Assembly: GCA_951406725.2 (NCBI GenBank)
Contig: OX597818.1
Location: 496,001-560,000 of the forward strand
Direction: 5' to 3'
Source: Octopus vulgaris
Lineage: Eukaryota
DNA: 64,000 bases
The position numbers and the translations under genes are program-made. The notes beneath the pieces were generated by a model. The model did not search any database and had not been told where the DNA came from. It worked only from the letters and a program-made list of their open reading frames with translations. Positions 3,471-63,016 of this stretch are shown here, piece by piece. How positions within the stretch are numbered: position 1 is the first letter of the stretch; every line of letters starts with the position of its first letter.

Positions 3471-3803
3471 CATCATCATCATCATCATCATCGTTTAACG
3501 TCCGTTTTCCGTGCTAGCACGGGTTGGACAGTTCGACTGGGGTCTGGGGAGCCAGGGGCTGCCCCAGGCTCCAGTCTGATCTGGCAGTGTTTCTACAGCT
3601 GGATGCCCTTCCTAACGCCAACCACTCCGCGAGTGTAGTGGGTGCTTTTTACGTGCCACCTGCACAGGTACCAGAGGGGTCTGGCATCAGCCACAATCGG
3701 TTGGTGCTTTTTTATGTGCCACCGGCACAGAAGCCAGTCAAGGCGGTGCTGGCATCGGCCACGTTCGGATGGTGCTTTTTATGTGCCCCCGGCACAGAAG
3801 CCA
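3471..3803 (-). mobile_element. RTE-type 3' tail fragment with (GAT)n tail, nested inside the MULE
   Basis: Reverse complement of the TTGGCGTTAGGAAGGGCATCCAGCTGTAGAA...GGACGTTAAAC(GAT)n tail that ends the RTE LINE at 62820-63015. Contains internal GTGCCACCGGCAC-type repeats. Confidence 0.8.
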
Positions 3804-13100: not shown

Positions 13101-13789
13101 TGACTTCACAGTCTTTTGTACACAATCCTAAAGAGCAACTAATTAGTAGAACTGACAGCTATTTAAAGTAGCCATAGACATTAATGATTACACAAATAAA
13201 CATTATCCACCGTATCATCTTATACAACTAATGAAGATAGTCCTTTCTTATTTATAAGCCTAAAGAACTGGTGTTAGTGGGGAAGGTGTTGAACAACGAA
13301 TGGATTAAGTTAGAAAACTGACATTTTGAGATCATATCCAGTGACTTCTTCATCTTCCTCCAGGATCCATAACAATATTGATAACAGCTTATCAAGTATG
13401 ACTTCTATTCTTATAAAAAGATCTGGCTCAGGCTAAAAGCAATACTTATTCTCATAATTCTTTGCTGGTTCTCTGACAACACACACATACACACACAAAC
13501 ATTAGTTTGTAGATGTCCACATGTGTATGTAGTAGCTATGTCTATATGTGTATGTGTAGTGTGTGTAGTTGCCATGTCTATATGTGTTTATGGTAACTAT
13601 GTCTAAATGTATGACACTGCTTGAATGATGATGAAACTCTTACAAATACCACATGATGTCAAAATATGGAGACACACACACACACACATGCTAACTGCCA
13701 GCAAACCATGGAACAACCTTTCTTATTCTTTACAGATGCAACAGCAAACAGCCTTCTAATTGATGATACATCCTTCCATCCTGTGGGTT

Positions 13790-16176: not shown

Positions 16177-16665
16177 CTTTATGTATAACAAATACTCTCC
16201 TCACATCTCTACCCCCATACAATCTTGCAACCACCCCCAACTACTACAACTGCTACACAAGATGCACTTGGACACATCACCCATATCTCTTTGGGGATAC
16301 CACTAATTCATTTTCACTCATTCACCTAAAAGTGAGTTACCATGTAGCTCCTCTACAACATGAACCTGCCCTGCCCCAACCTCTTCCCTCATACCATAAC
16401 CCCTATATAACATGAGGATGCAGTGCCCTCATCTCCTTGAGTTTGAAAACTTGCAAGCTACAAAATGACTTTAATAGTGAAGTGGCATGAAAAGAAGCAC
16501 CCAGTACAAACTGTAAAGTGGTGCTTGGCATTAGGAAGGGCATTCAGGTGTAGAAACTATGCCAAAGCAGACATTGGAGCACAGTACCATCCTTGGGCTC
16601 ACTGAATCCAAACAAACCATTCAAACCATGCCAGAATGGAATATGGATGTTAAATGATGATGATA
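13790..16665 (+). mobile_element. Highly decayed RTE-clade LINE: endonuclease and RT N-terminal remnants, PHD-finger remnant, 3' UTR with (GAT)n
   Basis: Fragments TWMWNDTVDRAIKAKKQAWK, MDQVMKVTE..GFMP..LAFV..EKAFD and CRKGIGIDSICCTHCKLW..RC; the first two align by eye to the RTE at 60-63 kb. Many stops. RTE tail at 16490-16665. Confidence 0.85.
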
Positions 16666-16669
16666 TGAT

Positions 16670-16805
16670 GGCCTTATTTCAATCTCTGTCAACTAAATCC
16701 ACTCACAAAGCTTTGGTCAGTTTAGGGCTATAGTAGAAGATACTTGCCCAAGGTGTAATGTAGTGGGACTGAACTCCTTAATCACACAGCTGTGCTGTGC
16801 CTATT
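16670..16805 (-). mobile_element. CORE-type tRNA-derived SINE, 5' part; similar partial copies at ~28590-28753, 29575-29740, 40585-40730, 44265-44390
   Basis: AAATCCACTCACAA.GCTTTGGTC...GCTATAGTAGAAGA.ACTTGCCCAAGGTG...GTGGGACTGAAC matches the full copy at 54124-54533. Confidence 0.7.
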
Positions 16806-23852: not shown

Positions 23853-24206
23853 ATCGAAATCGAATTGAACCAGCCAGGATCCCTGGTCTGGTGGTACGTA
23901 AAAAGCACTATCCGACTCGTGGCCGATGCCAGCGCCGCCTCGACTGGCTTCCGTGCCGGTGGCACGTAAAATACACCAATCCGACCGTGGCCATTGCCAG
24001 CCTCGCCTGGCACCTGTGCAGGTGGCACATAAAAAGCACCCACTACACTCACGGAGTGGTTGGCGTTAGGAAGGGCATCCAGCTGTAGAAACATTGCCAG
24101 ATAAGACTGGAGACTGGTGCAGCCTTCTGGCTTCCCAGATCCCCGGTCGAACCATCCAACCCATGCTAGCATGGAGAACGGACGTTAAACGATGATGATG
24201 ATGATG
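23853..24206 (+). mobile_element. Young RTE 3' UTR/tail fragment ending in (GAT)n
   Basis: CpG-rich and close to the tails at 39155-39399, 45490-45730 and 62820-63015. Confidence 0.85.
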
Positions 24207-24549: not shown

Positions 24550-25224
24550 CATACACACACGTGTATAAATATATGCTCTGGACCACTTTGATTATATTCA
24601 CTTTTCTGTAACTTGAAAGTATACTCTGACACCTCTTCACCACTATCTTCTCGCCTTTTCTAGTTGAAGTAGCCATGTATCACTTCTACTGCAACACACC
24701 GGTTTTACCTAATCATCAGCTGGTGTAAAGTCACCTCCCTCAATAACATCCACTAACTCAATTGAGGAGCCTTGTGTTGCAAGTTACTCGGTGATCTTAT
24801 TAGTGCTTGTGTCACATAAAATACAGCCAGTACACTCTGTGAAATGGTTGGTGTTAGGAAGGATATCCAGCTAAAGAAATTGTATCAATGCAGATATTCG
24901 AGCTTGATGCAGTCCTCTGATTCGCCAGCTCCTGTCAAACTGTCCAACTAATGCCAGATGTTAATCAATGCTAATGATGATATTTATGGGTATGTGTGTG
25001 TGCTGTTGTCTCTTTGTCTTCACATCACATGATGGTTGTAAGTGAGACTCACTATCATACAAGCAGTGTTCTTTGTTTCCAATCCCCCATGAAAACAAGT
25101 CTAGGAGGAAATATTAATTTGCTTGGAAACAAGGGTTGAATGGCAACATGAAGGGTGTCCAGTCATCAGAAATTTGCCTCAACAAATTGTCCAACCCATG
25201 TGATCATAAAAAAGCAGACATTAA

Positions 25225-36830: not shown

Positions 36831-37166
36831 GTGACATATCATTCCATGATCGACTTTATCACAGACCTTTGCAAAGTCGAGATATATCACTTCCACATTT
36901 GAGTGGTTGAGCAGTCGTTTCAGCACCCAGTCATAGAGTTGTAGGAGCTGAGTTAGGCAGCTTCTTCCTGGTCGGAAACCATGTTGGGTGTCAGGCAGCA
37001 AGTCATTTTCTTCAAGGAAGGTGATTAGTTTCCTTCTGACTATTCGTTCCATGACCTTGCTGATGTGTGAGGTCAGAGAGATAGGTCTGTAGTTCTTGGC
37101 CGCCGTCTGCTACCTCCTTTATGAATAGGGTATATTTTACCTTCCTTCAGTTTTCTTGTAAGTTTG

Positions 37167-37167
<1 letters not shown>
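36831..37167 (-). mobile_element. Internal RT fragment of the same CR1/L2-group LINE family as 47107-50760
   Basis: MERIVRRKLITFLEENDLLPDTQHGFRPGRSCLTQLL...YLDFAKVCDKVDHGMICH; reverse complement of ~49261-49599. 5' end abuts (TA)n. Confidence 0.92.
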
Positions 37168-37217
<50 letters not shown>

Positions 37218-37220
<3 letters not shown>

Positions 37221-37753
37221 TATTATTTATTAATTATTATTATTCTGATCCCCCTAGTCGCCACTCTGTTTACTATTTCAGCCTCGCCTCGTTTTTGCAT
37301 ATTCTGTATAATTCACTAGTTATCGTTATAGATATTTAAGATCTATCTCCCTTATAGAAATTGGCTGACGATTCTTCGCGGGGTTTTTCTCTTCCCTTCT
37401 CTCCCCCTCTTTTTACATTGTCGTCTGTCTGGACTCCTCTCTTCCTACCACTCGCCATGGCTATGCATACTTAAGCTAGTAAACTGCCTCATTCTTGATT
37501 CCGAATTTTTTTTGCCAAGTCTGTCCGTAAACGAAGTGATCTCAAGATAAGAAATCTTTGAACTTTAATTCATCCGTATCTCTATTTATTATTATTATTT
37601 ATTAATTATTATTATTCTGATCCCCCTAGTCGCCACTCTGTTTACTATTTCAGCCTCGCCTCGTTTTTGCATATTCTGTATAATTCACTAGTTATCGTTA
37701 TAGATATTTAAGATCTATCTCCCTTATAGAAATTGGCTGCCGATTCTTCGCGG
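37218..37753 (+). repeat. ~165-bp direct repeat with 372-bp period (about 1.4 monomers), upstream of the satellite
   Basis: CTGATCCCCCTAGTCGCCACTC...CGATTCTTCGCGG starts at 37245 and 37617, with one visible substitution. Confidence 0.9.
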
Positions 37754-39399
37754 CGCACCCGCCCTACCCACCCCCACCACCAATACCGGATATCTCTATT
37801 TTGCTCCAACTATACCGGATGTCGTTTCTCCCACCACCATTATAGGTGTCTACTCTATGAACCCCCTCTTCAATACGCTATTTCACCATGCATTACCCCT
37901 CTCTCGATATCCTACGTTCTACTTGCCTAGAACCTGTCCTCTGAACCACCCCTCCCACTGGTGCTCCCCTATATTTCTGCACCCCCCACCACCATTATAG
38001 GTGTCTACTCTTTGAACCCCCTCTTCAATACGCTATTCACCATGCATTACCCCTCTCTCGATATCCTACGTTCTACTTGCCTAGAACCTGTCCTCTGAAC
38101 CACCCCTCCCACTGGTGCTCACCCCTCCCACTGGTGCTCACCCCTCCCACTGGTGCTCCCCTATATTTCTGCACCCCCCACCACCACCATTATAGGTGTC
38201 TACTCTTTGAACCCCCCTCTTCAATACGCTATTTCACCATGCATTACCCCTCTCTCGATATCCTACGTTCTACTTGCCTAGAACCTGTCCTCTGAACCAC
38301 CCCTCCCACTGGTGCTCCCCTATATTTCTGCACCCCCCACCACCATTATAGGTGTCTACTCTTTGAACCCCCTCTTCAATACGCTATTCACCATGCATTA
38401 CCCCTCTCTCGATATCCTACGTTCTACTTGCCTAGAACCTGTCCTCTGAACCACCCCTCCCACTGGTGCTCACCCCTCCCACTGGTGCTCCCCTATATTT
38501 CTGCACCCCCCACCACCATTATAGGTGTCTACTCTTTGACCCCCCCTCTTCAATACGCTATTTCACCATGCATTACCCCTCTCTCGATATCCTACGTTCT
38601 ACTTGCCTAGAACCTGTCCTTTGAACCACCCCTCCCACTGGTGCTCCCCTATATTTCTGCACCCCCCACCACCATTATAGGTGTCTACTCTTTGAACCCC
38701 CTCTTCAATACGCTATTCACCATGCATTACCCCTCTCTCGATATCCTACGTTCTACTTGCCTAGAACCTGTCCTCTGAACCACCCCTCCCACTGGTGCTC
38801 ACCCCTCCCACTGGTGCTCCCCTATATTTCTGCACCCCCCCACCACCATTATAGGTGTCTACTCTTTGAACCCCCCTCTTCAATACGCTATTTCACCATG
38901 CATTACCCCTCTCTCGATATCCTACGTTCTACTTGCCTAGAACCTGTCCTCTGAACCACCCCTCCCACTGGTGCTCCCCTATATTTCTGCACCCCCCACC
39001 ACCATTATAGGTGTCTACTCTTTGAACCCCCTCTTCAATACGCTATTTCACCATGCATTACCCCTCTCTCGGTATCCTACGTTCTACTTGACTAGTACCT
39101 GTCCTCTAAACCACCCCTCCCACTGGTGCTCCCCTATATTTCTGCACCACCCCCATAAAAAGCACCATCCGAACGTGGCCGATGCCAGACCCCTCTGGCA
39201 CCTGTGCAGGTGGCACGTAAAAAACACCCACTACACTTGCGGAGTGGTTGGCGTTAGGAAGGGCATCCAGCTGTAGAAACACTGCCAGACTAGACTGGAG
39301 CCTGGGGCAGTCCCGAGCTCCCCAGACCCCGGTCGAAACCGTCCAACCCGTGCTAGCGCGGAAAACAGACGTTAAATGATGATGATGATGATGATGATG
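37750..39399 (+). mobile_element. Non-coding RTE-derived element: 5' UTR-like part expanded into a satellite, joined to an RTE 3' tail
   Basis: Begins GCGGCGCACCC...CCACCAATACCGG like the 46440 end of the minus-strand element. The satellite joins directly to the RTE tail (39155-39399) ending (GAT)n. Confidence 0.7.
37831..39150 (+). repeat. Satellite array: 8 units of ~156 bp, some lengthened by extra copies of a 19-bp subrepeat
   Basis: Unit CCACCACCATTATAGGTGTCTACTC...GATATCCTACGTTC...CACCCCTCCCACTGGTGCTCCCCTATATTTCTGCACCC, starting near 37831, 37987, 38181, 38338, 38511, 38667, 38841 and 38997. Confidence 0.95.
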
Positions 39400-39415
39400 A
39401 TATATATATATATAC

Positions 39416-39491
<76 letters not shown>

Positions 39492-41472
39492 ATATATATA
39501 TATACATATAAATATCTCAGTCGACTGCATGTAATTTAAACCTTACACAAGGACCACCAGAGACCCACATATCTGAGACACATACACACACATGCACATG
39601 CACACACACACACACACACACACACTGTTGTATTGTTCAATCTCGAATATTCACTTTTATTGTTAATGAGTACTTCTTAAAAATTAGCATTTTGAAAATT
39701 AGTTTCAAAGGAGGATAATAAATATGAAATATCATAATTTTGATTAGTCTAGTATAGTCATAAAATCCTTCTGACACTGGTTTAACAGAGACCACCTCCA
39801 GCCGCCAGTTCTTCAACACAAAACAGTTTTAGAGTGTTTGTATTTAAATTAAAACACTCAACCATAATTTTATGTAAAAACTTTTTACTAAATTTTGTTC
39901 CAAATATGAGATGTAATAATTAAAATGCTAATTATTTTAAATTCTACCAAATTTTTAGTTTTCAAAATCATTTAAAACACACAGGAAGCAGTATGTTTTA
40001 TTAGCAATATGATCAATAATAAATGGCTAAACTTCTTTCAAGTGTGAAATAGAGATTGGCATTATTGCTTTGAAGTGAAAGGGTTTTAAAACTATTACCA
40101 ATCTTTAGTGAAGGAATTTTGGTAAATCTGGAAACTATTCTAAAGGACTCTGATGGTAATTATCTTCAGATATATCAAGTATTTTGGTTAATATTTAATC
40201 TATGTGTGTGTGTGAGTAATATATGAGTGTTAATACCTACAGGTGACACATAAAAACAAGTTTATACTTGTTTACACTTCACAGTAAAATGTCGACAGAA
40301 TGATAAAACAGGGATACAAAGATATGTTGCAAAGAAAGACCATTGTTGATGATGATGATGATGAGGAGGAGGAAGAGGAAGAGGGGCGGATGAGGAGGAG
40401 GAGGTGGTGGTGGTAAAGGAAGGTGGTGATAGAATTATGATGATGATGATTTTCTAGATTGGTCCTTGACCATAAACATGTTAAGGAGGAGTACTGAACT
40501 GACTACAGTATATATCTAATGTTCAACACATTGATTTAGCAACAATCTCACATTGATGTGCATATAGACACATTCACACAAACATGATGGGTTTCTATAC
40601 AGTTTCCATCTACCAAGTATCATTCATAAAGTATTAGTCATCAGATATTATGAAAGAAGACACTCATTCAAAGTGATGCTGCATAATGGGATTGAACCCA
40701 GAAACATTCTTAATTGCACAATCATGTCTTTTACCATGTAATAGGCTAACAAGGATACATCTAAACAAAGTAAAACCAGTTAGAATTAACAGTCAAATCT
40801 CTTAAAGAAGTCATGGGCAAATTACTATCCGTGGGACTTTCTGAGTGGCACACTAATGAAAAATTACCTCGAACTTTTTCTAGTAGTGTAACCTGCCTGA
40901 TGATGAACTCTGTCTCATGAGGCCCACTTCTCAATAAATGTTGCCCACCTCTGTCTTAAAGAAAGGATAATGTAGTCCTAGGTATACAGATGGTCAAAGA
41001 CAAAGTTGACTTCAGTGGGGTTTAAACTTAGAATCTGGAGAGATTCTATATGGCAAGGCAGTCCTATGCTCTCCAGATTCATGCAGTCACTGATAAAACA
41101 AAGGAAGGAAGGATAGAAAAGGTAATAACATTAAATAATAAACAAAAACATTTGTGGTTTGTAGGGGTGGGGGGTTGCAGGTTATATGGTATGTCTAGCT
41201 AATTTAATAATATACTATATATGGACCTTAAATAACTCTAAACTATCATCCCCTCCTTCCTTTGTGATGATATTTTCTGGACTGTTGCAAACCCCCTCAA
41301 ATTCAGTTATCTAGTATTCCTCCACATCAACAAACTTCTCTTTATCTTCAAAGTGCTTCTTTTTCCCCAGGAGTTCTATTAATATACCACTGAATTGGTT
41401 ATGAGCCCTAACTACACCAGTTTATTTTTTGATTATCTTGAAACCCTGATTTCCACCCTGTTCACCAACCCC

Positions 41473-42957: not shown

Positions 42958-43534
42958 TACAGATGTGTTTGTCTTTTCTATTCTCTCTCCTCTACATTCA
43001 GAACATTTGTCAATTTCTTTTCTCACAGCAATTACATATTTATTTTTATTACTATTTCCATTCAATAACTTGTTACTGACCTGTACAGGATTCCTTGGAT
43101 TCTGAATCTTAACTCTTTCTTTCTGACACTCACTCCCAGTCCAAGGACAAGATCCCAAAAGATAAGAGAAGAGCTTAAGTTCAATCACTTTGAGGAGGGA
43201 ATAATATAAACTCTTCTGTCGACTAACTGGTGCCAACACAAACAATCACCAATTTCCTTGCAGATTTCACCATGTGTCTGTGGGGGTAAGGTGTATTGAG
43301 TTGGAATGATGTGGGAGTTTGAAATTAAGAGCAATAAATATAATTTTTCATACTTTTCCTCCTAATCATATTCAAAGACACTATCCCTTAGTGAGGAGTA
43401 CACTTAACTTCCTTTATCTTTTACTGAGGTAATTTTTTATCATCAACAATTCAGAGTCTGTCTGTTTTTAATTTAGATAAAGAAAAAATTTTAACTAATT
43501 TGAAATATAACCAACATAGACATACACAAATATC

Positions 43535-43835
43535 AGCATCATCATCATCAGTTAGCATCAGTTTTCCATGCTGGCATGGGTTAGATGGTAAGCTAGAGAG
43601 CAGTGCCAGGTCCAGTCTGTTTTGGCTTCATTCCTACAGCTGGATGCCCTCCCTAATGCCACTCAATCCATGGAGCACAAGTGCCTGTAATGTGTCACTG
43701 GCATGGGTGCCTTTCACATGTCACTGGCACCTCACATGTGTCACTAGCATGGGTGCCTCGCACATGTCACTAGCATGAGAGCTTCACATGTTTCACCAGC
43801 ACAGGTGCCTTTCATGTTTCACCAGCACTGGCCAT
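43535..43835 (-). mobile_element. Old RTE-type tail with a degenerate ~20-25-bp minisatellite (CACATGTCACTGGCATGGGTGCCT-like)
   Basis: CATCATCAT..TTTCCATGCTGGCATGGGTTAGATGG...GCTGGATGCCCT, then repeated TCACATGTCAC(T/C)(A/G)GCA units. Confidence 0.6.
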
Positions 43836-45489: not shown

Positions 45490-46745
45490 ATCATCATCAT
45501 CATCATCATCATCATCGTTTAACGTCCGCTTTCCGCGCTAGCACGGGTTGGACGGTTTGACCGGGTCTGGGAAGCCAGGGGCCGCACCAGGCTCCAGTCT
45601 GAATCTGGCAGAGTTTCTACGGCTGGATGCCCTTCCTAACGCCAACCACTCCGTGAGTGGATTGGGTGCTTTTTACGTGCCACCTGCACAGGGGCCGGAG
45701 GGTCCGGCATCGTCACGATCGGTTCGAGCATTTTAACGTGTCAGCGACACGGGGGCAACGAGGTCCGGGGTACTTTGGGGATCGGGGTACTTTGGGGATC
45801 CAGGGTACTTTGGGGATCCGGGGTACTTAGAATGGGTAGGGGGTATGTGGAATTGCTGCAGAAAGCAGCCCGGGTCTTTGTAGTCACAGCATTTATCGTC
45901 ACTGAGTAACGTAATTAGGTAGAGGAAAGAAATACAGATATTCTAGAGTTGAGTTGGGGAGGGGGGTCCAGTTGAGGCGGGTAATATAGGGGAGCAACCA
46001 GTGGGAAGGTTGGGGTAAGGAGGAACGATGGCAGGAAGGGTTGGTGTAGGTTCCTAAGAAATAAAAACGTAGGATATTACGAGGCGGGAGGGTACTAAAG
46101 GGGATGGTCGGAATGAGGCAGTGTCAGGAGGAAGCGTAAGATCGGTGGGCAGTTGATGAGCTATGGCGCTAACAGCTTGTCTTTTCACAGTGAAAGTATA
46201 TGAGGAGAAGGGGTAGTGGGGGGAGGGGGAGGGAGTAGGGCGTACCCGGTGTAGATGAGTAAGGCGTATCCGGTGTAGATGGTGAGAACTGGGTATACTG
46301 GTATTGGTGGTGGGGGGTGAGAACAGTGTTCACCGGTATTGGTGGTGGTGGCGGTGAGAACAGTGTTCACCGGTATTGGTGGTGGGGGTGAGAACAATGT
46401 TCATCGGTATTGGTGGGGGGGGGGCGCACCGCCACTGGCGGAAAGATGGGAAGAGATGGGATTACGGCTTGAGGCAGCCTAAGGTTAAATTTTGTAGAGA
46501 GAGAGATAGGAAAGATAAATCAAGTTATGGCGAAGGCTTGAAAGTAGCCTAAAAGGTTAAATTTTCGTAACAGTGTATGAATAAACGTAGTAACAACAAA
46601 TAAAAAAAAAGAGTAAGATAAATTTTTAAGAACTTGCTGCGGGCATCGACCAGGAGTTGAAATTGAAGAAGAAAGTAAGTTGAATTGGGAATTTAAATTG
46701 CAGAATCGTAATGGTAATGGCGATTTTCAAGTTTTAGCATAAGAA
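45490..46745 (-). mobile_element. Non-coding bipartite RTE derivative (5' UTR-like region plus 3' tail) with internal minisatellites
   Basis: RTE tail at 45490-45730; GGGGTACTTTGGGGATC x4 (~45767-45830); ~36-39-bp CCGGTATTGGTGGTGGGGGTGAGAACAGTGTTCA x4 (~46290-46420). Reverse complement contains ATATCCTACGTT and CCCACTGGTTGCTCCCCTATATT, shared with the satellite monomer. No ORF. Confidence 0.7.
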
Positions 46746-46869: not shown

Positions 46870-47015
46870 GGCTCGAAACGTTAAAGACTTGTTTCATTTA
46901 TATTTCCTGAGCACCATACTAATACAATTGTTTGTTTGTATTCCACCTGCCTTCGTCTTTTGTTTATTTCCGTAAACCTGCCTTCGTCTTTTGTCTATTT
47001 TCATAAAGCTTACCG
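46866..47015 (+). mobile_element. Penelope-like terminal-repeat fragment between TA microsatellites; reverse homologue at ~34440-34560
   Basis: TAGGCTCGAAACGTTAAAGAC (3' half of a minimal hammerhead-like motif)...TTCCTGAGCA.CA.ACTAATACA...TTGTTT...CACCTG.CTT.GT.TTTTG. Confidence 0.5.
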
Positions 47016-47106
47016 TTATATATATACATACACATACATATATATATATACATACACATACATATATATATATACATACACATACATATATATATATACA
47101 TACATA

Positions 47107-47628
47107 CAGGATGGAGACGCGGGCACTGATGAAAAAGGTCACCCCCACCTGGTAGACGCCCAGGAAGAAAACTCCAGTGAGAAACCTGCCAGGGAGGTAA
47201 ACCCAAGTGCGGGTGCTCCTACCTGCACCAAAAGCCATGGACATGGAGATGAAAGAACCAAAAAAGGAGGAAAAACTAAAACTAAAACTCAGGCAAAACC
47301 AAAAAACGAAACAGCCAAGGATAGAAGCAAACCTAACTATCCATATGCCAAAAAGGATGGAAACAAGCAGCGCACACGGGTATGTAGCTTCTACCTGAGA
47401 GGTGCCTGCCGGCATGGAGAGGAAGGTGCAGGTTGCCATTTTGCACATCCAGGACCCTACCGCAGAAACCAACCACCGAAAGGAAAAGGGATGGACCACG
47501 CACCACCTGCCCCAAAACGGTTGTACGCAGATGTGGTGCGTGCCACAAACCGCCAACGTGTTGTTGAAAGGGCAGCTGCTGAGCAAGAATTTTTTTTGTG
47601 CATGGCACAAAAGATTTACAGCAGCTAA
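47107..47628 (+). pseudogene. LINE ORF1 C-terminal part: basic region plus CCCH zinc finger
   Basis: Lys-rich segment followed by CSFYLRGACRHGEEGAGCHFAH (C-x7-C-x8-C-x3-H). The upstream part of track ORF 46936 is microsatellite read-through. Confidence 0.75.
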
Positions 47629-47656
47629 CCTGGCTCCATCAAACGCAAGCTCGCAG

Positions 47657-50600
47657 ATGGGACTACCCACAGTTCACAAGACCACCACAGCAAATAGACC
47701 CAAGGTGGACACCACCGGCAACAGTATACACCTCACCTCAATGCTCCTACTGAACATCAGAGGACTACTAACACACAGTAACAGGACAAAAGTCCCGTTC
47801 TTGAGAGACTTTGTTGCATGCAATCAAGCCTTATGCATAGCACTTACGGAAACACACCTGAAACCGGACATAGCGGATGCGGAATTACACATACCACAGT
47901 ATGTTGTACTACGGACCGACAGAAAAGAAAGGAGTCATGGAGGAGTTGCTATGTACATCCGTGAGGACCTCACACCCCAGGTCCTTTTGTCATACTCAAA
48001 CTCGGTGTGTGACATACTAATTGTACATGTAAGGCAACTTGGTGTAGTTGTGTGTGCTACATATCGCCCTTCAGATGCCCCAAGCCATATGGGCAAGTTT
48101 GAAGACTGCCTTATAAAAATAGAAGAAGTTCTAGTCACACTAGAACAGCACATAAGTGTACTTCTCATGGGAGACTTCAACCTACCCAATGCCAGATGGC
48201 CCGAGGGCCTTTCTCTCCCAGGAATGACACGAGGTGAACAGGGACAGGTGAAGTCCCTCCTGAACCTCATCAACATGGAGCAAGTAATACTCCAACCAAC
48301 CAGGGCAGGTAACACACTGGACCTCTGCTTCACAAATAATATGGATCTCATCCATAATGTGAAAGTGACACCGACACTACTCTCGGATCACAACATGGTA
48401 GAGCTGACTATGTACGGGCCAAAGAAAAACATGGACATGCAGCCTACAAGAAGCTCTCAGAATCTTTCCAGCTTGAACTTCAATAAGGCAAACTGGAAAC
48501 AAATTGAGAAAGAGATCCTCAAACAAAACTGGCTTGAATGTCTCTCCTCGCCAGACATCGACATGAAACTTCAACAATTCATGTCTGTAATGCATGAAAC
48601 TTCAACAATTCATGTCTGTAATGCAAGCCATATGCTACAAATGTGTCCCAGAGAGAAAGGCCACTGTACACAAGAACAAAATCTCCAGAGAGAGGAAAAT
48701 TTTAATGAGACGGCGTACAAAAATTTCAAATCGCCTAAACAAACAAATTGAAAGCAGTGAAAAGTCCCGCCTGAAAATAAAACTGTTGGAAATTGAAAAA
48801 TGTCTGCGACTCTCCCATGAAAAGGAAAGAGCAGACAAAGAAGCCTGGGCTATAGACAACATAAAAACTAACCCCAGAGCTTTCTACAGGTATGCCAAAG
48901 AAACAGCTACGGTGCACTGTAGGATAGGGCCACTCCTTGAAAAGGATGGCACACTCACAGGAAAACCAATGAGGGTACGTGAAATACTGAATGAGCAATT
49001 CAAGAGTGTTTTCACTCCACCCCTTGGGCATTTCCAAATCAGCAATCCAACTGACTTCTTTACCACTGCAGATATAAAATCAGAGGCGGCGACGATAAAT
49101 TACATCGATATAAAGGAAGACGATGCAATAAAGGCTATAGATGAAATGAAAACAGACTCAGCTATTGGCCCCGATGGATTCTCGGCAATCCTCCTAAAAG
49201 TATGTAAGAGAGTCCTAACAAGACCACTGCAGTTCCTCTTTCAGAGCTTCCTTGCAGCTGGCAAACTTCCAAGAAAACTGAAGGAAGGTAAAATATGCCC
49301 AAATTCATAAAGGAGGTAGCAGAGCGGAGGCCAAGAACTACAGACCTATCTCTCTGACCTCACACATCAGCAAGGTCATGGAACGAATAGTCAGAAGGAA
49401 ACTAATCACCTTCCTTGAAGAAAATGACTTGATAACTGACACCCAACATGGTTTCCGACCAGGAAGAAGCTGCTTAACTCAGCTCCTACAACACTATGAC
49501 TGGGTGCTGAAACAACTGCTCAACCACTCAAATGTGGAAGTCATATATCTCGACTTTGCAAAGGCCTTTGATAAAGTCGATCATGGAATGATATGTCACA
49601 AACTGCGTGATCTTGGCATAGTTGGAAAATAGAAGTCAGGTGGTAGCAGCCACTTCCATTAACACGCAAATAGTGAGCGGTGTTCCGCAGGGCACTGTTT
49701 TGGGACCACTACTGTTCATAATGGCCCTCTCAGACATGCCCTCAGCCACGCAGAGAGCCACGATCACAAGTTATGCAGATGATACAAAAGTTTCACAGGC
49801 AATACAGAACCCTGAAGACACTAAGCACCTGCAATGTGAGCTAGACGAAATATACAAGTGGGCTGAAAAGAATAGCATGCAGTTCAATGCTGAAAAGTTT
49901 CAAGCTTTATACTATCAGCATGCAAAACTGAATGCAATACCCAATGAATACACTGGACCCGGAGGGATTGCAATCCCAGAGGCACAATCAGTGCGTGACC
50001 TGGGTATTCACATGAGTGATGACGCGACCTTTCATGTACATGTTGCTAAACTGACAATGAAATGTAGACGGGTGGCTGGATGGATTCTTAGAACCTTTAG
50101 AACAAGAGAACAAGAAACCATGATGGTCCTCTGGAAGACACTTGTCCTAAGCCACTTTGACTATTGCTCTCAGTTATGGTCACAATCCAGTGTCAAGTTG
50201 ATCACAGAACTTGAGGCGATCCAACGAAGCTACACGAAGAAGATAGCCTCTGTGCAGCATATGAGCTACTGAGAAAGACTCAAGAGATTAAAGCTCTATT
50301 CCCTGGAGCGTAGGTGAGAAAGATATGCCATAATATATATCTGGAAGATCCTGGAAGGACTTGTCCCAGACTTTGGCATCGAGAGTCACACAAATGCCAG
50401 AACCGGACGCCACTGCGTAGTACCAAGGACTCCAAATTTGCCATCAAGATGTAGGACAAGATATTGTGATAGCCTTGGCTTCAGAGGCCAACAGCTCTTC
50501 AATATCCTCCCGAAGAACCTGCATGGTGTAGATGTGGATGTCTTTAAAGTAGGACTGGATCTCTTCCTGTCAGGTGTCCCGGATGAACCAACTTCACGGC

Positions 50601-50674
50601 AGGAGGTGCAGATGAGGGCAGCTGCATCGAACTCTCTCATGCATCAGATGGCGTTTGCTAAAAAGCATCCATGA
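47657..50674 (+). pseudogene. LINE ORF2 (APE endonuclease plus reverse transcriptase), disrupted
   Basis: Broken by a 31-bp tandem duplication (48563-48593/48594-48624), a +1 insertion near 49300 relative to the sibling at 37120, a deletion near 49628, TGA stops at ~50270 and ~50315, and a 9-bp deletion near 50520. Confidence 0.92.
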
Positions 50675-50760
50675 GGTAAAATCGTGTAGCAAACCAAATG
50701 GCGGTGCCCCAGCATGGCCACAGCTCATTAGCTGAAACTAGAAAAATCAAAATCAAAATC

Positions 50761-51426
50761 ATACACATACATATATATATATACATACACATACATATAT
50801 ATATATACATACACATACATATATACATACATATATATATATACATACACATACATATATATATATATACATACATATATATATATATATACATACACAT
50901 ACATATATATATACAGACACATACATATATATATACATACATATATATATACATACACATACATATATATATATATATACATACACATACATATATATAT
51001 ACATACATATATATATACATACACATACATACATATATATATATATCTATATACACATACAAATATATATGCATACACAAACACATATATATACATATAT
51101 ATATACATACATATATATATACATACACATACATATATATATATATATATATACATACACATACATATATATACATACACATACATATATATAAATACAT
51201 ACATATATACATATATATATACATATAAATACATACATATATATTTTTATATACATACATATATACATATACATACATATATACATATACATACATATAT
51301 ACATATACATACATATATACATACATATATACATATACATACATATATACATATATATATATACATACATATATACATATATATATACATATATATATAC
51401 ATACATACATATATATATATACATAC

Positions 51427-51463
<37 letters not shown>

Positions 51464-51540
51464 CATACATATACGTATATACATATATATACATATATAT
51501 ATATATACATATATATACATATATATACATATATATATAA
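50761..51540. repeat. Compound (TA)n/(CATA)n microsatellite
   Basis: Directly visible. Confidence 0.97.
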
Positions 51541-52045
51541 GCTACTGGGAAAGACTCAAGAGATTAAAACTCTATTCCTTGGAGCGTAGGCGAGAAAGAT
51601 ATGCCATAATATATATCTGGAAGATCCTGGAATGACTTGTCCCAAACTTTGGCATCGAGAGTCACACAAATGCCAGAAACGGGCGCCACTGCGTGGTACC
51701 AAGGACTCCAAATTTGCCATCAATATGTAGGACAAGATACTGTGATAGCCTGGGCTTCAGAGGCCCACAGCTCTTCAATATCCTCCCGAAGAACCTGAGG
51801 GACCTGCATGGTGTAGATGCGGATGTCTTTAAAGTAGGACTGGATCTCTTCCTGTCAGGTGTCCCGGATGAACCAACTTCACGGCAGGAGGTGCAGATGA
51901 GGGCAGCTGCATCGAACTCTCTCATGCACCAAATGGCAGTTGCTAAAAAGCATTCGTGAGGTAAAATCATGTAGCAAACCAAATGGCGGTGCCCCAGGAT
52001 GGCCACAGCTCATGAGCTGAAACTGGAAAAATCAAAATCAAAATC
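51541..52045 (+). mobile_element. Second, 5'-truncated copy (~505 bp) of the CR1/L2-group LINE 3' end
   Basis: Aligns to ~50264-50760 but keeps TGG/CGA where the long copy has TGA stops, and keeps the 9 bp deleted there. Ends (AAAATC)n. Confidence 0.93.
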
Positions 52046-52935
<890 letters not shown>

Positions 52936-54780: not shown

Positions 54781-56529
54781 TTGTAGTAGTGGTGGTGGTT
54801 GTATCAAGCAACACAATATAGCAATGTATTTTAGTTTCTTCCTCCATGGTCCGGAGTTCACATCCACCAATAATAGGAATATTTTTCATATACTGGATAG
54901 GGTGGAGTAAATTAACTACACCATTCTGAGCATGTGGTATCAAGTTCTTCGAAATTATTATTTTGTGGGTGGAACTGTAATTAGGAAGACAAAATCTACA
55001 GGAATCTGGTCGCTTCTTTTATCTTTTACTTGTTCCAATCATTGGAATGTGGCCATGCTGGGACACCACTTTTAATAGTTTTAATTAAACAAATTGACCC
55101 AAGTACATTTGTCCTTTTTTAAGACTCAAGTTTACCAGGTTCAAGTTTATTCAATATTCAGAATTCCTAGTTATCTATCAGTGTCAAATATAAACATCCA
55201 AATAAGGTCAAAATGATAATGTCTGTTGATATACAGATATTAAATGGGTGTTAATACACACACACACACAGGTTCTCTTCTATTTCCTAAGTGAAATATA
55301 ACTGTTGTCATAAAAATGCTGGTTCCTTCAAATGATGATGTATTTAATCTGTTAAAATAGCAAACCCCTTTTTGAAATTGTATGTTACCATGGAAACGTT
55401 TTTCTTCTTCACTGTTTCCTTTCCTCTCCCCATGCTATCATCTCCTCCCCACTACAACTTCCTCTTGAATTCCCTCCTCCTTATAAAGAACTGAATCCTT
55501 CCACTACCTCCAACACCCACATGTTGAGACTCAAAATTCTTCTTACAGAACAGATTTATTTTTACTTATTTCTTACTTTCTGCTTTAAGATATTCCATGA
55601 AACAGAACTAACTCCTTTTCAGTTAAAAGAACATCTTATTTAACATTTCAAATAAATGGAGATTTCGGTAAAGTTTTAGGGTTAAATGTAAGAAAACCAA
55701 GAAAACATAATTCTAAAAAATAAATTATATAATAAAAATTTAAAAAAAAGACTATCCTTATGGTTGGTTTTGCAAACTTTTGCTCTCAACTATTACAGGA
55801 TTTGTCTAATATTTTGAGTTAATTACTAAATTTCTAGAAATATTAGAATTGTTCCACCTCAAGACTGTTGTAGGGGAACCAAATCTGCGATGTGAATCAA
55901 GTATACAACAGCCTAATTACAAGATCACATTGAAACTAATTCACTTTGTTTAATGTCCCTGGAGAAGAGTGTCAAAGTCATACCCCATTTCTTGGAGATT
56001 AATAGATTTTCACAAAGAAATCATTATGTAATTATGTAATTACTTAATTACAATAACAATAACTACTGCTGCTGCTGCTGCTAGAGCTAACTAAAAGTGA
56101 AATCTCTAAATAACTAATGGAACTGCTAGAAATAGCAACCAAATCTCCCTACCATCTCAAAAAATATATAGTTTCTTTACATTCTGAGTTCAGATTCCAT
56201 TGGAATTCACTTTGCCTTTCAACTATAACACATCAATACAATAAGGAGTTGGGGGTGGGGGTGCCTTCAGTTTTGCAGGTTACAAGACAACTTCACTAGT
56301 GCTGGTACCAAAGGGACAAAAAAGGACCCAGTACATGCTGTAAAGTGTTTGTTGTTAGGAAGGGTGCCCAGCTGTGGAAACCATGCCAAAGCAGACACTG
56401 GAGCACAATGCAGTTCTCTTACTCATCATATTCTGTTGAACAATCCAACTTCTGTCAGTATGGAAGACAGGCATTAAATGATGATGATAATGATGGAAAT
56501 GTATTTAACTGACTAAACTGAGAAAAGAA

Positions 56530-58628: not shown

Positions 58629-59359
58629 CTAATATATATCCTGTCTTTTGTGAAGACAGTTGTGTACTGAAGGTGATTTAGCTTCTATTTCTAGCAGGTA
58701 GAGGAACCACAGCAAAGTCTCTTTCATCGATATATATATATATAATGAATAAGCGGGTATAGATTATCCAGGCAGGTATCATTTGAGCACTCAATTATAA
58801 TCCGGGTTGTGACTAACAATGGGTATATACGGGGTTTGCTTCGCAAGATTATAAATATTTTACCAAGTGTATATCTAAGACAATTACAATGAATATGGAG
58901 ATTAATACATCTGCATATTCTTTTATTTCTATAGTCAATTATACAACATATTTGCTTTAAATTTATCTGACAGATTTCTGCTGCATAGACATCTAACAAT
59001 TGCATATGCATCTAGTTACTTTCAACTGATTATTTATGCAACTTTAACCAAGGTCCATCCACTGATATGGTTCAAAATGAAGTGTATGTAGGCTTAGCTA
59101 GCATTATTTTCTTAGGTTACTATAGTTTTTGAGTGCAAAGAATGTGAGAGAAGGATTTGGAATCCTGAATGGCTATAAAAACTGCTATGAGGTTGACCTT
59201 ATCCTGACCCTAGGTTTGAAATTCAAATTGAGACTACTAGATCTTTTAATTCAAAGTATTTTTTTAAAAAAACCTGAGCCTTACTTGGATTATGAATTAG
59301 TGATCTTCAGATATTGTGTATAATTATTGGTTACTAAACCAGACATAATTAAATATTGA

Positions 59360-62300
59360 GGTACACCGGATATCCCTTCTCCCACCACCATTAACTGTGT
59401 CTATTCTCCCAACCCCTCCGCAACACTGGGCTGTTCTCTACATATTACAGGACAAATGCAACCAGCTCAGCTGCTCATCCACCCACTTAACCTGCTATCT
59501 TATGTTTCATTCTGTCTAGAAATTTGTCACCATCACAACCAGATATCTCTTCTCCCAATTCCCCCTCCTCACTGGTGCTGTTCTCTATATTACCTACACT
59601 CTCTCTTTCTCTATCTCTCTACTGAGACAGACACAACCAGGTTATCTGCCCACCTACTTAACCAGCTATCTTTCGTTTCATTTTCATTCTGTCTAGAAAC
59701 TTGCCAACAACTACCCAGGAAATTTCCTTGGCCTTATCAAGTGAAGGAGAATGCTATTCAGCTGTTCATGTGTGGGTGCTTTTGTGTGTGTGTAGGAATC
59801 AGCTTGTTTCCTCTCTCTCTGTCTGAACCCTTCCCCGTTGGTGGTACCCTACATTATACCTGCAATCCTCATCTTCCTGGACAAACGCAACCAGTTTTAA
59901 CTGTCTCCCTCCTAACCTAACACTGACTGGAATATCCATATTTCTGCTACACCACTTAAATTTACATCATTCGATGACTATAATGCTTATACTTACAATG
60001 CTGCTAACATCGGCTTCTACCTCCAGTAGGGGCAACAATCTTAACACACTTGAATGTTGTCACGTCAGAAGAGAGAACAAATGAAGCATGCCTAAAAAAT
60101 GAACACCACGACAACCTCACTCATCTTTTCAGGCGCTGAATAACATCTCTCCTTTCCAAACCTCACCCCACATTCCCTTCCCAGTTTTCAGAGTTGACAG
60201 TGTCAATGTTGGCACACTGAAAGGTAGGTCTAGTGAGATTGTAGAGATGCTTGAAAGGAGACGGGCTGATGTATGCTGCATAGAAGAGGTAAAATGGAGA
60301 AGAGCTTCAGCTAGGGTCCTCGCAGGCAAGGCACATAGGTATAAAGTTTTCTGGCAAGGTAACATGGATGGTGTAGGAGGTTTAGGCATACTCCTTGCGG
60401 AGAAATGGGTGGATAAAGTCATAGAGGTTGTTAGGGTATGCAATAGAATGCTTAAGCTCAGGCTAGTCCTGCAGAACAGCACAGCTACAATTATCTCCAG
60501 CTATGCCCCACATGCAGGGCTACCAAATGATCAAAAGGACCACTTTTATGAAACCCTTTTACAGGCTACCTCAAAGACATGTGGCAATGATCTCATTTTT
60601 GTGACTGGAGATTTTAATGGGCATGTGGGGCAGGAATCTGGTATCTTCACTGGGGTACACGGGAGCCATGGCATTGATGCCCGGAACAATGAGGGAACTA
60701 GGCTACTGGATTTCTGTGATGCATGTAACCTTTTAATCTACAACACTAATTTCAGGAAGCCAGATAGCCACCTGATAACCTATCAATCAGGGGACTCTGC
60801 TATCCAGATTGATTTCATCCTCACCAGACAGCGGGACACAGGGTTGCTCTTAAATGCAGAGACCCTCCCGGGTAAAGAATGTACCCCCCAGCATAGGCTA
60901 GTCATTAGTGACTTTAGGCTCAAGGCCAGAAGGATACCAAGAAGCAGACCAATCCAAATAAAAAGGATTTGGAAGCTAAAGAACCCTTCACATGGTCAGA
61001 GATTTGGGGACATCTTCATCAAAAAATTTGATGAGAGGGAGGAGTAGCTACAGACATCAGACATAGAAGGTAGCTGGAAATTCCTACAGGACAGTTTGCT
61101 GAATGCCACAGACAAAGTCTGCGGATGGTGCAAAGTCCCTTCCAGACCTTGAGTTACATGGTGGTGGAATAGTACAGTAGACAAAGCCATCAGAGCAAAG
61201 AAACAGGCCTGGAAGGGTGGGGGTAGCAGGGAACTGTATCAGGTAGCCAAAAGGGAGGCTGGGAGGCAAGTATACATAAGAAAAGAAGATGTTTGGCAAT
61301 GTCCAGCAACATGAGGACCAAAGAACTGAAGTATTTCGGATTGCAAGACAGCGTGTGAGAGAAAATTGTGACGTTACAGGATAGAAATGTGTCTGCATGG
61401 ATGATGGTGCAGTTGCTTTTAATGATTCTGAAAAGAAAGAGGCTTGGAGGAGCCATTATGAAAGACTGCTGAACGAAGAGAATGAATGGGAGGTGGAGAG
61501 CCTGCCAAATGTTGACCCACTAGAGGGACCAGCTATCCAAATAGACAGCTCACTGGTAGATAAAGCAATTAAGGATATGAAGCCAAGAAAAGCCCTCAGC
61601 CCATCAGGAATCACTGCTGAGATGCTTAAAACATCTGGTGGTGTGGGCTATGGCCTAGTCACCCGCATTGTAAACCAGGTAGTTCACGATAGAGTCATAC
61701 CCAATGACTGGTATAGCAGTACCATAGTCAACTGCTACAAGGGTAAAGGTGATGCTCTAGATAGAAATAACTACAGGGGTAACAAACTGCTGGATCAGGT
61801 GATGAAGATCACAGAGAGGGTGATAGCCCATCTCATTAGGGAGAGAGTCTGCTTAGATGAGATGCAGTTCGGTTTTGTGCCAGGTAGAAGCACCACTGAT
61901 GCCATATTCCTGGTTCAACAACTGCAGGAGAAATACTTAGCTAAAGATAAACCCCTATACTTAGCTTTTGTGGACTTGGAGAAAGCTTTTAACAGGGTCC
62001 ACCAATCCCTTATCTGGGAATCGATGCAGAAACTGGAGATTGACGAATGGTTAATAAGGGCTGTACAGGCCCTATACAGAGAGGCCATTAGTAAGGTTAG
62101 GATTGGCAATGAGTATAATGAAGAATTCCAGGTAGAAGTAGGTGGGGGTGGATGCTCAGAGAGTGTTACCACTAGAATAAGAATAGCCTGGGCAAAGTTT
62201 AGAAAGCTTCTACTCCTACTGGTGACAAAGGGTCTCTCGCTCAGAGTGAAAGGTAGATTGTACGACGCATGTGTGCGAACTGCCAAGCTTCACGGCAGTG

Positions 62301-63014
62301 AAACATGGGCTGTGACTGCAGGGGACATGCATAGGCTTGAAAGAAATGAAGCTAGCATGATCTGCTGGATGTGTAATGTCAGTGTGCATACACGACAGAG
62401 TTGTAAGCGCCCTGAGAGAAGTGTTGGATATATGAAGCATCAGATGTGGCGTGCAAGAGAGACGTTGCACTGGTATGGTCATGTATATGGATGGATGAAG
62501 TGTGATGAAGTGCAACTCCCAAACAGTTGAAGGAATCCGGGGTAGAGGTAGACCCAGGAAGACATGAGATGAGATGATGAAAGACCGAGACCTTTGGAGA
62601 TATGCTGTGACTGAGAAGACCCGACAAATAAAGTGAGTTCACAGCTGTATCTTACACCAGTTTCGCATAACCAGCCTCAGCCCATTCAAAAGTACTTTGG
62701 ATGGTAGAGCAACCTGCTCTGCTTTGATCGTAGGGTGACCTGCTGTGCTGGAGGGGACCCAATGAGTCAAGTACATCAACATCAAAATAAAAATCAAATG
62801 GAAATTGTAGTTGTGATACCCATGCCGATGGCATGTAAAAAGCACCCACTACACTCACAGAGTGGTTGGCATTAGGAATGGCATCAAGCTGTAGAAACAC
62901 TACCAGATCAGACTGGATCCTGGTGCAGCCTCCTGACTTCCCAGACCCCAGTCAAACCATCCAACTCATGCTAGCATGGAAAACGGACGTTAAACAATGA
63001 TGATGATGATGATG

Positions 63015-63016
<2 letters not shown>
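59360..63016 (+). mobile_element. RTE-clade LINE, near full extent, with stops and an internal deletion of the RT core
   Basis: C-rich 5' UTR (~59360-60130). Endonuclease NVGTLKGR..DVCCIEE..YAP..GDFNGHVG..QIDFIL..CTPQH; RT N-terminal YKGKGDALDRNNYRG..QFGFVPGRSTTDAIF..FVDLEKAF; C-terminal HGSETWA; 3' UTR and (GAT)n tail. Confidence 0.93.
60130..62580 (+). pseudogene. RTE endonuclease-RT ORF, disrupted
   Basis: Track ORFs 60247-61047 and 61397-62530; stops at ~61047 and ~61150; QG..SP and YADD motifs absent. Confidence 0.9.

What the first reader, a model, noticed from the sequence alone, without database searches (positions are those of the whole stretch)
37750..39399. Satellite DNA apparently born inside a non-autonomous RTE derivative
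Seen: eight ~156-bp units run directly into an RTE 3' tail. Monomer motifs (ACCGGAT..CCCACCACCATTA..GTGTCTA.TCT, ATATCCTACGTT, CCCCTCCCACTGGTGCTCCCCTATATT) recur as single diverged copies in the 5' UTR of the RTE at ~59365-59600 and in the non-coding element at 45970-46440 (minus). Inference: a 5' UTR segment of an RTE-related element was amplified into a satellite while keeping a mobilisable 3' tail, so it may be a retrotransposable satellite. The window would then hold three stages: coding parent, non-coding bipartite derivative and satellite-expanded derivative.
Basis: partly seen in the sequence, partly recalled or inferred. Interest (0 to 1): 0.7.

Follow-up and report, generated by a model that had tools for sequence, protein, structure and literature searches.

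The report
Jumping gene carrying two tandem arrays
The eight repeats are the middle of a young, non-coding jumping element: one piece of an RTE retrotransposon's leader was multiplied inside the element, is likely carried to new chromosomal sites by RTE enzymes borrowed from coding relatives, and at one site forms a 10-kb satellite-like array that likely grew in place.

Summary
It spans 37210-39401: 5'-truncated array of 372-bp units, 80-bp RTE core, eight 155-bp units, 223-bp RTE 3' tail, (GAT)n. In 86 of 89 genomic loci the tail directly follows the last unit. 5' ends vary, and variants of the two arrays are linked across loci, so whole arrays likely move by retrotransposition. Only 540 exact unit matches exist genome-wide. 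The genome holds the full series: coding RTEs with one unit in the 5' UTR (87% identical), ORF-less derivatives with one unit, a single clade with usually 4-5 units, and one locus with about 67. The window's other two elements are cousins, not parents. Clear TSDs are rare, and RNA evidence is weak. The promoter role of the 372-bp array is inferred, and its 5' ends do not cluster as in mouse L1. Verdict: a new variant of bipartite non-autonomous RTE, working like an SVA-type VNTR retroposon.

The parts
37169..37209 (.). (TA)n microsatellite at the 5' flank; likely the insertion target
   Evidence: TA runs flank 56 of 79 family copies with both ends defined
37210..37753 (+). 5' array of 372-bp A units, 5'-truncated: partial unit 37210-37357, whole unit 37358-37729, start of the next unit to 37753; promoter role inferred
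   Evidence: up to about 19 units at other loci (L061/L102)
37750..37830 (+). Core J: the conserved start of the RTE 5' UTR, joined to the A unit through a few shared bases
   Evidence: 87-89% to the same segment of coding RTEs L257 and L298-L300; z 21 for J plus unit against the older RTE copy L119
37831..39155 (+). Internal array of eight 155-bp B units, amplified from a single-copy segment of the RTE 5' UTR; 329-bp higher-order dimer; the last unit is a distinct variant
39156..39378 (+). RTE 3' tail, starting at the last 67-bp repeat of the RTE 3' UTR; the ORF and most of both UTRs are deleted
   Evidence: 93-94% to tails of coding copies L252/L257 and L298-L300; 86-88% to the intact young family
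39376..39401 (+). (GAT)n terminal microsatellite
39402..39515 (.). (TA)n microsatellite at the 3' flank
45494..46744 (-). Related, separate family: internal-deletion derivative of the young intact RTE subfamily, with one 5' unit (338-349 bp in the coding copies), 5' UTR, and the 3' end joined where the ORF was removed
59362..63016 (+). Related, older, broken RTE copy, 5'-truncated inside the core; a cousin, not the direct parent

Best explanation
This is one copy of a young non-autonomous RTE derivative built as (372-bp unit)n, RTE 5' core, (155-bp unit)n, RTE 3' tail and (GAT)n, which is likely transcribed as one RNA and likely inserted by RTE-encoded enzymes acting in trans. Steps: (1) Shown: a coding RTE subfamily carries the core and one 155-bp unit in its 5' UTR. 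(2) Inferred from the breakpoint: an internal deletion, probably through a 4-base GCAC microhomology, joined the end of that unit to the last 67-bp repeat of the 3' UTR. (3) Shown: the resulting single-unit body sits behind several different tandem 5' heads (239, 241/265, 358 and 372 bp; a 366-bp array lies further upstream in one copy). (4) Inferred from the tree: in the lineage with the 372-bp head the unit was duplicated once, probably by mispairing of the C-rich CCCAC motifs at both its ends. (5) Inferred: arrays of 4-5 units were then copied whole by target-primed reverse transcription into TA-rich sites, to about 110 or more loci. (6) Inferred: arrays keep changing length at the DNA level after insertion, giving the 329-bp trimer here and about 67 units at one locus. 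The 372-bp units are likely renewable promoters, as in rodent L1 (about 55% for that step alone).
For: Tail directly after the last unit in 86 of 89 non-redundant loci (85 by script, plus L100 by eye), and in 74 of 76 loci not found through the tail. All 31 new loci found through the A unit lead into the B array and tail. 3' ends are fixed while 5' ends vary: 64 in A, 1 in J and 18 in B of 83 closed ends. One copy has twin-priming geometry (L202). A-haplotype and last-unit variant are linked: 30 + 37 concordant, 1 discordant of 68 typed. Unit-order patterns are shared across chromosomes, and the L variant is never in a non-terminal unit. Coding copies with one unit: 216 of 247 columns identical in L257; tails 93-94%; none of 30 such coding loci has the unit in tandem. 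15 of the first 30 tail-pattern hits have a single unit. The 20 array copies form one clade (99/94) among single-unit copies. TA flanks are shared with intact coding RTEs: 3' side 37 of 79 against 12 of 20, background 4-9%. 11 of 20 intact coding copies have two or more 5' units of their own. CpG o/e is 0.87-1.41 in 8 of 8 head units against 0.33 in the young ORF and 0.29 in the window.
Against: TSDs, typical of RTEs (8-20 bp in plant RTEs, PMC5850137 passages), are clear in only 1 of 23 copies without TA flanks. Ten of 79 copies share 8 or more non-pure-TA bases on both sides (shuffled pairs: mean 1.2, max 5), but these are microsatellite variants. No intact partner with a near-identical tail was found: 0 of 11 closest coding copies have a whole ORF, and the intact family is only 86-88% identical in the tail. 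The 63 5' ends in A are uniform over the unit (KS p = 0.42), unlike the clustered truncations of mouse L1 monomers (PMC6454616 passages), so no start site is shown. One of 28 A loci has no core or tail (L220). RNA evidence is from contigs of runs only guessed to be RNA. Tree bootstrap had not settled and the outgroups carry only the tail.
Confidence: 0.85

Rival explanations
1. A classical satellite derived from an RTE 5' UTR, with the tail here by chance or by an RTE fragment inserting next to it.
For: Units are 97-99% identical and head-to-tail, with a higher-order dimer; one locus has about 67 units.
Against: Tail adjacent in 74 of 76 loci not found through the tail; only 540 exact unit matches in 2.8 Gb; even the longest array sits between core and tail.
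Confidence: 0.03
2. The arrays spread by a DNA route (rolling circle, extrachromosomal circles, gene conversion or segmental duplication), not through RNA.
For: TSDs are mostly absent; L064 and L065 share flanks, so one duplication at DNA level did occur; copies often sit in TA microsatellites.
Against: Fixed 3' end with a (GAT)n tail of variable length, polar 5' truncation, an inversion with twin-priming geometry, and the same flank type as coding RTEs; flanks are unrelated between loci.
Confidence: 0.05
3. The element retrotransposes as described, but the tandem arrays (A and B) are made during reverse transcription by template slippage or jumping, and the A units are passengers, not promoters; transcription comes from flanking host sequence.
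For: No clustering of 5' ends in A; RTE relatives in this genome have tandem repeats in many places (30-38-bp repeats in the core, 67-bp repeats in the 3' UTR), which suggests a general tendency to duplicate; a YY1-like CGCCAT is missing from 2 of 8 units tested.
Against: Unit-order patterns are inherited across loci rather than remade at each insertion; variants private to one locus are fixed in all its A units (L032 4 of 4, L069 9 of 9, L105 13 of 13), which fits later DNA-level homogenisation, though an unsampled source copy could explain it too; head units are CpG-rich while the ORF of similar age is not.
Confidence: 0.25

Closest known systems
Bipartite non-autonomous RTE elements (Bov-A, RTESINE1/2, WALLSI3, RTE-N2_Lch; Kojima 2018, PMC5786205, parts 1-2 of 5 read)
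   Same: 5' UTR part joined to the 3' end of an RTE with the ORF deleted; microsatellite tail; presumed mobilisation in trans.
   Different: Those described are a few hundred bases long. Here the 5' UTR part is amplified in tandem (1 to about 67 times) and a second tandem array heads the element, so copies reach 1-12 kb; clear TSDs are rare.
VNTR composite retrotransposons SVA and LAVA (PMC4432496, abstract and outline read)
   Same: Non-autonomous, LINE-mobilised element with a 5' repeat, an internal tandem array with ordered units and distinct terminal units, and length change attributed to microhomology at DNA level.
   Different: No Alu-like, hexamer or SINE-R part and no poly(A); RTE rather than L1 partner; units of 155 bp rather than 30-50 bp; core, array and tail come from one retrotransposon. 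Works like it, not a member.
Mouse and rat L1 5' UTR monomer arrays with tether (PMC5381506 and PMC6454616, passages read)
   Same: Tandem CpG-rich units upstream of a conserved tether, variable in number (up to 50 in mouse; up to about 19 here), exchanged between families; GCCAT-type YY1 motif in several units.
   Different: RTE-type element in a mollusc; units are AT- and pyrimidine-rich; 5' ends do not cluster in the unit; promoter activity untested.
TE-internal arrays that seed satellites: Ogre 3' UTR/PisTR-A, Helentron central arrays, HeT-A/18HT (PMC9659126 passages and part of Table 1; PMC12628747 passages; PMC7492417 and PMC7004042 search listing only)
   Same: A short array inside a mobile element is dispersed by it and sometimes grows.
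   Different: Carrier is a non-LTR RTE derivative and the unit comes from the 5' UTR; no RTE case was in the passages read; no large free-standing satellite has formed in this assembly.
5' switching of Solanaceae RTE LINEs (bioRxiv 10.1101/2022.11.04.512097, passages read)
   Same: Conserved body and 3' end with exchangeable 5' ends.
   Different: That text has no occurrence of 'tandem', 'monomer' or 'satellite'; here each exchanged head is a tandem array, and switching also occurs on an ORF-less body.

Membership tests
Bipartite non-autonomous RTE | 5' part derived from an RTE 5' UTR | tested here: met
   Core plus unit 216 of 247 columns identical to the 5' UTR of coding copy L257; 84-89% in L298-L300
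Bipartite non-autonomous RTE | 3' part is the extreme 3' end of an RTE with its microsatellite tail | tested here: met
   Tail 93-94% to 3' ends of coding copies, (GAT)n end
Bipartite non-autonomous RTE | ORF lost by internal deletion; no small-RNA head | tested here: met
   No + strand ORF of 120 aa or more in 37210-39401; no tRNA in the window; no Rfam match near a gathering score in 37150-39450
Bipartite non-autonomous RTE | Insertion hallmarks: fixed 3' end, variable 5' truncation | tested here: met
   twin-priming-type inversion in L202
Bipartite non-autonomous RTE | Target-site duplications | tested here: inconclusive
   Clear in 1 of 23 copies without TA flanks; unreadable in the 56 of 79 with TA runs; intact coding copies show the same TA flanks (inspected by eye, no formal test)
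Bipartite non-autonomous RTE | Partner belongs to the RTE clade | tested here: inconclusive
   Single 1,007-1,119-aa ORF with endonuclease and RT domains and a triplet tail fits RTE as described in PMC5850137; no RT phylogeny with named references was run
Bipartite non-autonomous RTE | Mobilised in trans by the RTE protein | not testable with these tools
   Needs a cell assay; intact family tail only 86-88% identical
Classical satellite DNA | Head-to-tail near-identical units | tested here: met
Classical satellite DNA | Long, abundant arrays independent of a carrier element | tested here: not met
   540 exact unit matches genome-wide; median about 5 units; the longest, about 67 units, still lies between core and tail
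SVA/LAVA VNTR composites | Internal ordered VNTR between fixed 5' and 3' domains | tested here: met
   Shared unit orders and a terminal-only variant
SVA/LAVA VNTR composites | Alu-like domain, poly(A) end, L1 mobilisation | tested here: not met
   Parts map to an RTE and end in (GAT)n; no 7SL/SRP-type Rfam match
Rodent L1 monomer promoter | Tandem CpG-rich monomers upstream of a tether | tested here: met
Rodent L1 monomer promoter | 5' ends cluster at a start site inside the monomer | tested here: not met
   63 ends uniform over the 372-bp phase, KS p = 0.42
Rodent L1 monomer promoter | Promoter activity of the monomer | not testable with these tools
   Only contigs were on offer, which show no start or strand
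Ribozyme-bearing tandem retroelements (retrozymes; recalled, search listing only) | Hammerhead or HDV-like ribozyme in the unit | tested here: not met
   No such Rfam match at E up to 5 in 37150-39450; divergent ribozymes could be missed

The most novel reading that the evidence does not exclude
RTE machinery in this genome acts as a satellite nursery. A piece of its own leader became a tandem array inside an ORF-less copy, which is sown across chromosomes by retrotransposition under an exchangeable, self-renewing tandem promoter evolved independently of rodent L1. Single sown copies then grow in place past 10 kb. The whole path from coding parent to nascent satellite is preserved and still moving, so birth rates of satellite arrays could be measured locus by locus.
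Probability: 0.35. Interest if true: 0.7.

Novelty: new variant of a known kind. Interest (0 to 1): 0.5.

Why it matters
That satellites can arise from mobile-element UTRs is accepted, but intermediate states are rarely all present. Here one genome keeps the coding relative, the single-unit deletion derivative, the short-array mobile family and a 10.6-kb expansion, at 84-99% identity. This makes two open questions testable with long reads from a few individuals: whether arrays grow during reverse transcription or afterwards in DNA, and how tandem LINE promoters are renewed (called unclear for mouse L1 in PMC6454616). In practice, consensus-based repeat libraries would likely split this family into an 'unknown repeat', a 'satellite' and a 'SINE', and miss that they move together.

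Tried and rejected
Chance adjacency: rejected. Six loci picked because no exact tail motif was listed near them all had adjacent tails of 96-99%. Window RTE at 59362 as the parent: rejected; only 66 bp of the unit align and the tail is 83%. Element 45494-46744 as the intermediate: rejected; it derives from another subfamily. tRNA or ribozyme head: none found. Common start site in the A unit: not found. Large satellite block: not in this assembly. A poly(A) loose end after the B unit in run X8 looked like early polyadenylation, but a genomic copy has the same A run at this junction (L221), so it was dropped. RNA: contigs of four runs from four studies cover A, core and B and bridge A-to-A and A-to-core joints. 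The runs are only guessed to be RNA, no contig spans the element, and about 600 unit copies would lift slight DNA carry-over, so this is a hint only. YY1-like CGCCAT: in 6 of 8 head units (4 of about 6 independent lineages; 3-10% per shuffled unit), but the motif was picked by eye first, so it is not counted as proof. An intact coding copy with a near-identical tail was sought and not found.

Full report
Observation. The window holds eight head-to-tail units at 37831-39155 with spacings 155, 195, 156, 173, 156, 174, 156 and about 159 bp; units 2, 4 and 6 have extra copies of a 19-bp sub-repeat, giving a 329-bp higher-order period. The last unit runs directly into a 223-bp tail and (GAT)n. The unit aligns with the window's RTE (59301-60100) over 66 bp (z 5.7, 0 of 300 shuffles) and with the minus-strand element at 45741-46744 (z 4.3, 2 of 300); two controls gave z 0.0 and 0.2. 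The host is an animal genome of 2.8 Gb; that it is an octopus is my inference, and earlier notes of this scan say the same.

Genome census. A search with the 155-bp unit gave 456 candidates, of which 40 loci on 13 contigs were scored, with best units 99% identical; all 40 were read. A search with the 372-bp unit gave 239 candidates, 40 scored; the 31 loci that were new all lead into the B array and tail. With 13 loci's list and 6 from the tail pattern, 89 non-redundant loci were tabulated; L065 was dropped as a duplication of L064, and stretches covering the same element were merged. The tail abuts the last unit in 85 by script and in L100 on inspection: 86 of 89, and 74 of 76 among loci not found through the tail. 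Exceptions: L063 (interrupted, family tail not seen), L202 (B block inverted against the tail, with twin-priming geometry) and L212 (inverted A piece in between). Exact matches genome-wide: 540 for a B 36-mer, 635 for an A 32-mer, 373 for a tail 47-mer. Nine of the first 30 tail hits carry multi-unit arrays, which suggests about 110 or more such copies (inference). The median array has about 5 units; the longest has about 67 (10.6 kb) and still lies between core and tail. It has 29 distinct sequences among 60 parsed intervals and recurring variants, which fits internal duplication, but an assembly artefact is not excluded. There is no large satellite block in this assembly.

Mode of spread. 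3' ends are fixed; of 83 closed 5' ends, 64 fall in A, 1 in the core and 18 in B. Two source lineages are visible: the A haplotype and the variant of the last B unit agree in 67 of 68 typed loci, and that variant never occurs in a non-terminal unit; whole unit-order patterns recur on different chromosomes. So both arrays and the tail travel as one piece. TA runs flank 56 of 79 copies (3' side 37), as they do intact coding RTEs (3' side 12 of 20), against 4-9% background. Against the reading: a clear TSD was found in only 1 of 23 copies without TA flanks (L097, 16 bp); 10 of 79 share 8 or more non-pure-TA bases on both sides against a shuffled mean of 1.2, but these are microsatellite variants. 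Plant RTEs have 8-20-bp TSDs (PMC5850137, passages), and RTE-related target signatures are linked to the terminal microsatellite (PMC6007223, abstract), so this feature stays open.

Origin series. (a) Coding relatives. The RTE fragment at window 3470-3790 has a tail 92% identical to ours; searching with it led to coding copies with 93-95% tails. One of them, L257, carries the core, one whole B unit, about 350 bp of tether and an EN-RT frame; 216 of 247 columns match the window's core plus first unit. L298-L300 are alike (core 87-89%, unit 84-85%, tail 93-94%). Five of 30 loci from that search have a whole unit and none has it in tandem; 0 of 11 copies read in full have an intact ORF. The deletion joins the unit's end to a 67-bp repeat of the 3' UTR, with GCAC on both sides (microhomology role inferred). 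L222 keeps two of those repeats. (b) Single-unit ORF-less bodies. Of the first 30 tail hits, 15 have core, one unit (89-93%) and tail; 5 are tail only, 1 is internally deleted, none is coding. Their heads are different tandem arrays: 239 bp (8 copies; up to 18.8 units), 241/265 bp, 358 bp, with 366- or 85-bp arrays further upstream in two. The 358-bp unit is homologous to A (z 16.6); most other pairs do not align. L209, L210 and L221 have the A head with one unit. (c) Arrays. On the last unit plus tail, 20 array copies form one clade (99/94) among the single-unit copies, with L209 and L210 outside it (39 rows, L090 failed to parse, L221 not included, bootstrap not settled, outgroups hold the tail only). 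One origin of the array after recruitment of the A head is the simplest reading.

The other window elements. The RTE at 59362-63016 is an older, broken relative truncated inside the core (tail 83%). The element at 45494-46744 is the internal-deletion derivative of a young family with intact 1,007-1,119-aa ORFs (20 copies chosen for long frames). Eleven of those 20 have two or more 338-349-bp 5' units, up to at least 13.9. Its tail is 86-88% identical to ours, so it is a candidate mobiliser, not the parent. RTE identity rests on the single EN-RT ORF and triplet tail, not on a phylogeny.

The 5' array. Eight head units are pyrimidine-rich (63-69%) with CpG o/e 0.87-1.41, against 0.33 in the young ORF and 0.29 in the window. 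CGCCAT, part of the YY1 motif given for L1 in PMC5381506 and PMC6454616 (passages), is in 6 of 8 units, but I chose it by eye. Units differ by 0.8 substitutions within a locus and 5.1 between loci, and private variants are fixed in all units of L032, L069 and L105, which fits local regrowth or an unsampled source. Against a mouse-like start site, 63 5' ends are uniform over the unit (KS p = 0.42). One of 28 A loci in the first 100 matches lacks core and tail (L220). RNA support is weak: contigs of four guessed-RNA runs hold A, core and B, three tested lack the unique flank, and none spans the element.

Comparison. It is a bipartite non-autonomous RTE by the features tested (PMC5786205, parts 1-2 of 5), with TSDs open. 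It works like an SVA/LAVA VNTR composite (PMC4432496, abstract) and has a head like rodent L1 monomers, but is a member of neither. Satellites from TE UTRs and from TE-internal arrays are known (PMC9659126, PMC12628747; passages); no RTE case appeared in those passages. Octopus RTE papers read (PMC9115989 passages; PMC13282606 part 1 of 3 and passages) and a mollusc SINE paper (PMC4758252 passages) do not describe such arrays in what I saw. Ten full-text searches listed no paper on this architecture; Repbase, Dfam, subscription papers and supplements were not seen and may hold parts of it. This scan has already recorded RTE 5' monomer arrays, swappable heads and a 3' UTR expansion on other DNA of this genome; none matched the 155-bp unit by sequence.

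Verdict. Real; a new variant of a known kind; interest 0.5. Its value is the complete, datable series from coding leader to a 10-kb array, not a new class of element.

Noticed in passing
window 46885-52840 (+): Broken LINE of another kind (CR1-like by recall): an ORF1-like frame with a weak CCCH finger, endonuclease and RT frames, interrupted by long TA runs and a duplication of 50259-51539 at 51535-52837. A 95.5% identical fragment lies at 36881-37167, directly 5' of the element studied.
   Followed up: partly
L080/L081, G000:C65:2000-23400: An A array is split at unit position 195/196 by an insert of roughly 10 kb with TA at its edge; the insert was not identified.
   Followed up: no
L233, L227, L237, L252: RTE 3' UTRs with long, shuffled arrays of 67-bp repeats in the subfamily that gave the tail; a second array-forming region in the same clade.
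   Followed up: partly
L137, L143: Stacked heads: a 366-bp or 85-bp array and a short core fragment of another subfamily sit 5' of a 265-bp head, which suggests that heads are gained by fusion of one RTE 5' end onto another.
   Followed up: no
L182, L186, L187, L193: 5' arrays of the young coding RTE show higher-order periods (478, 499, 785, 1105-1194 bp) made by internal 89- and 144-155-bp duplications.
   Followed up: no
L222, G000:C2:158883000-158892900: Single-unit sister whose head is part A unit and part the head type of the coding parent lineage, and which keeps two 67-bp repeats; a possible snapshot of head switching.
   Followed up: partly
L191:1303-4557 (-): Weak PHD-finger match (E 0.0006, below the curated cut-off) just after the RT domain of the young RTE ORF.
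   Followed up: no
window 3470-3800, 16482-16670, 23880-24206, 24803-24988, 43532-43669, 56319-56495: Six more RTE-type tails of different ages (68-93% to ours) in the window, mostly 5'-truncated.
   Followed up: partly
window 13730-15853 against 61120-62401: Another degraded RTE coding fragment, 67-75% identical to the one at 59362.
   Followed up: no
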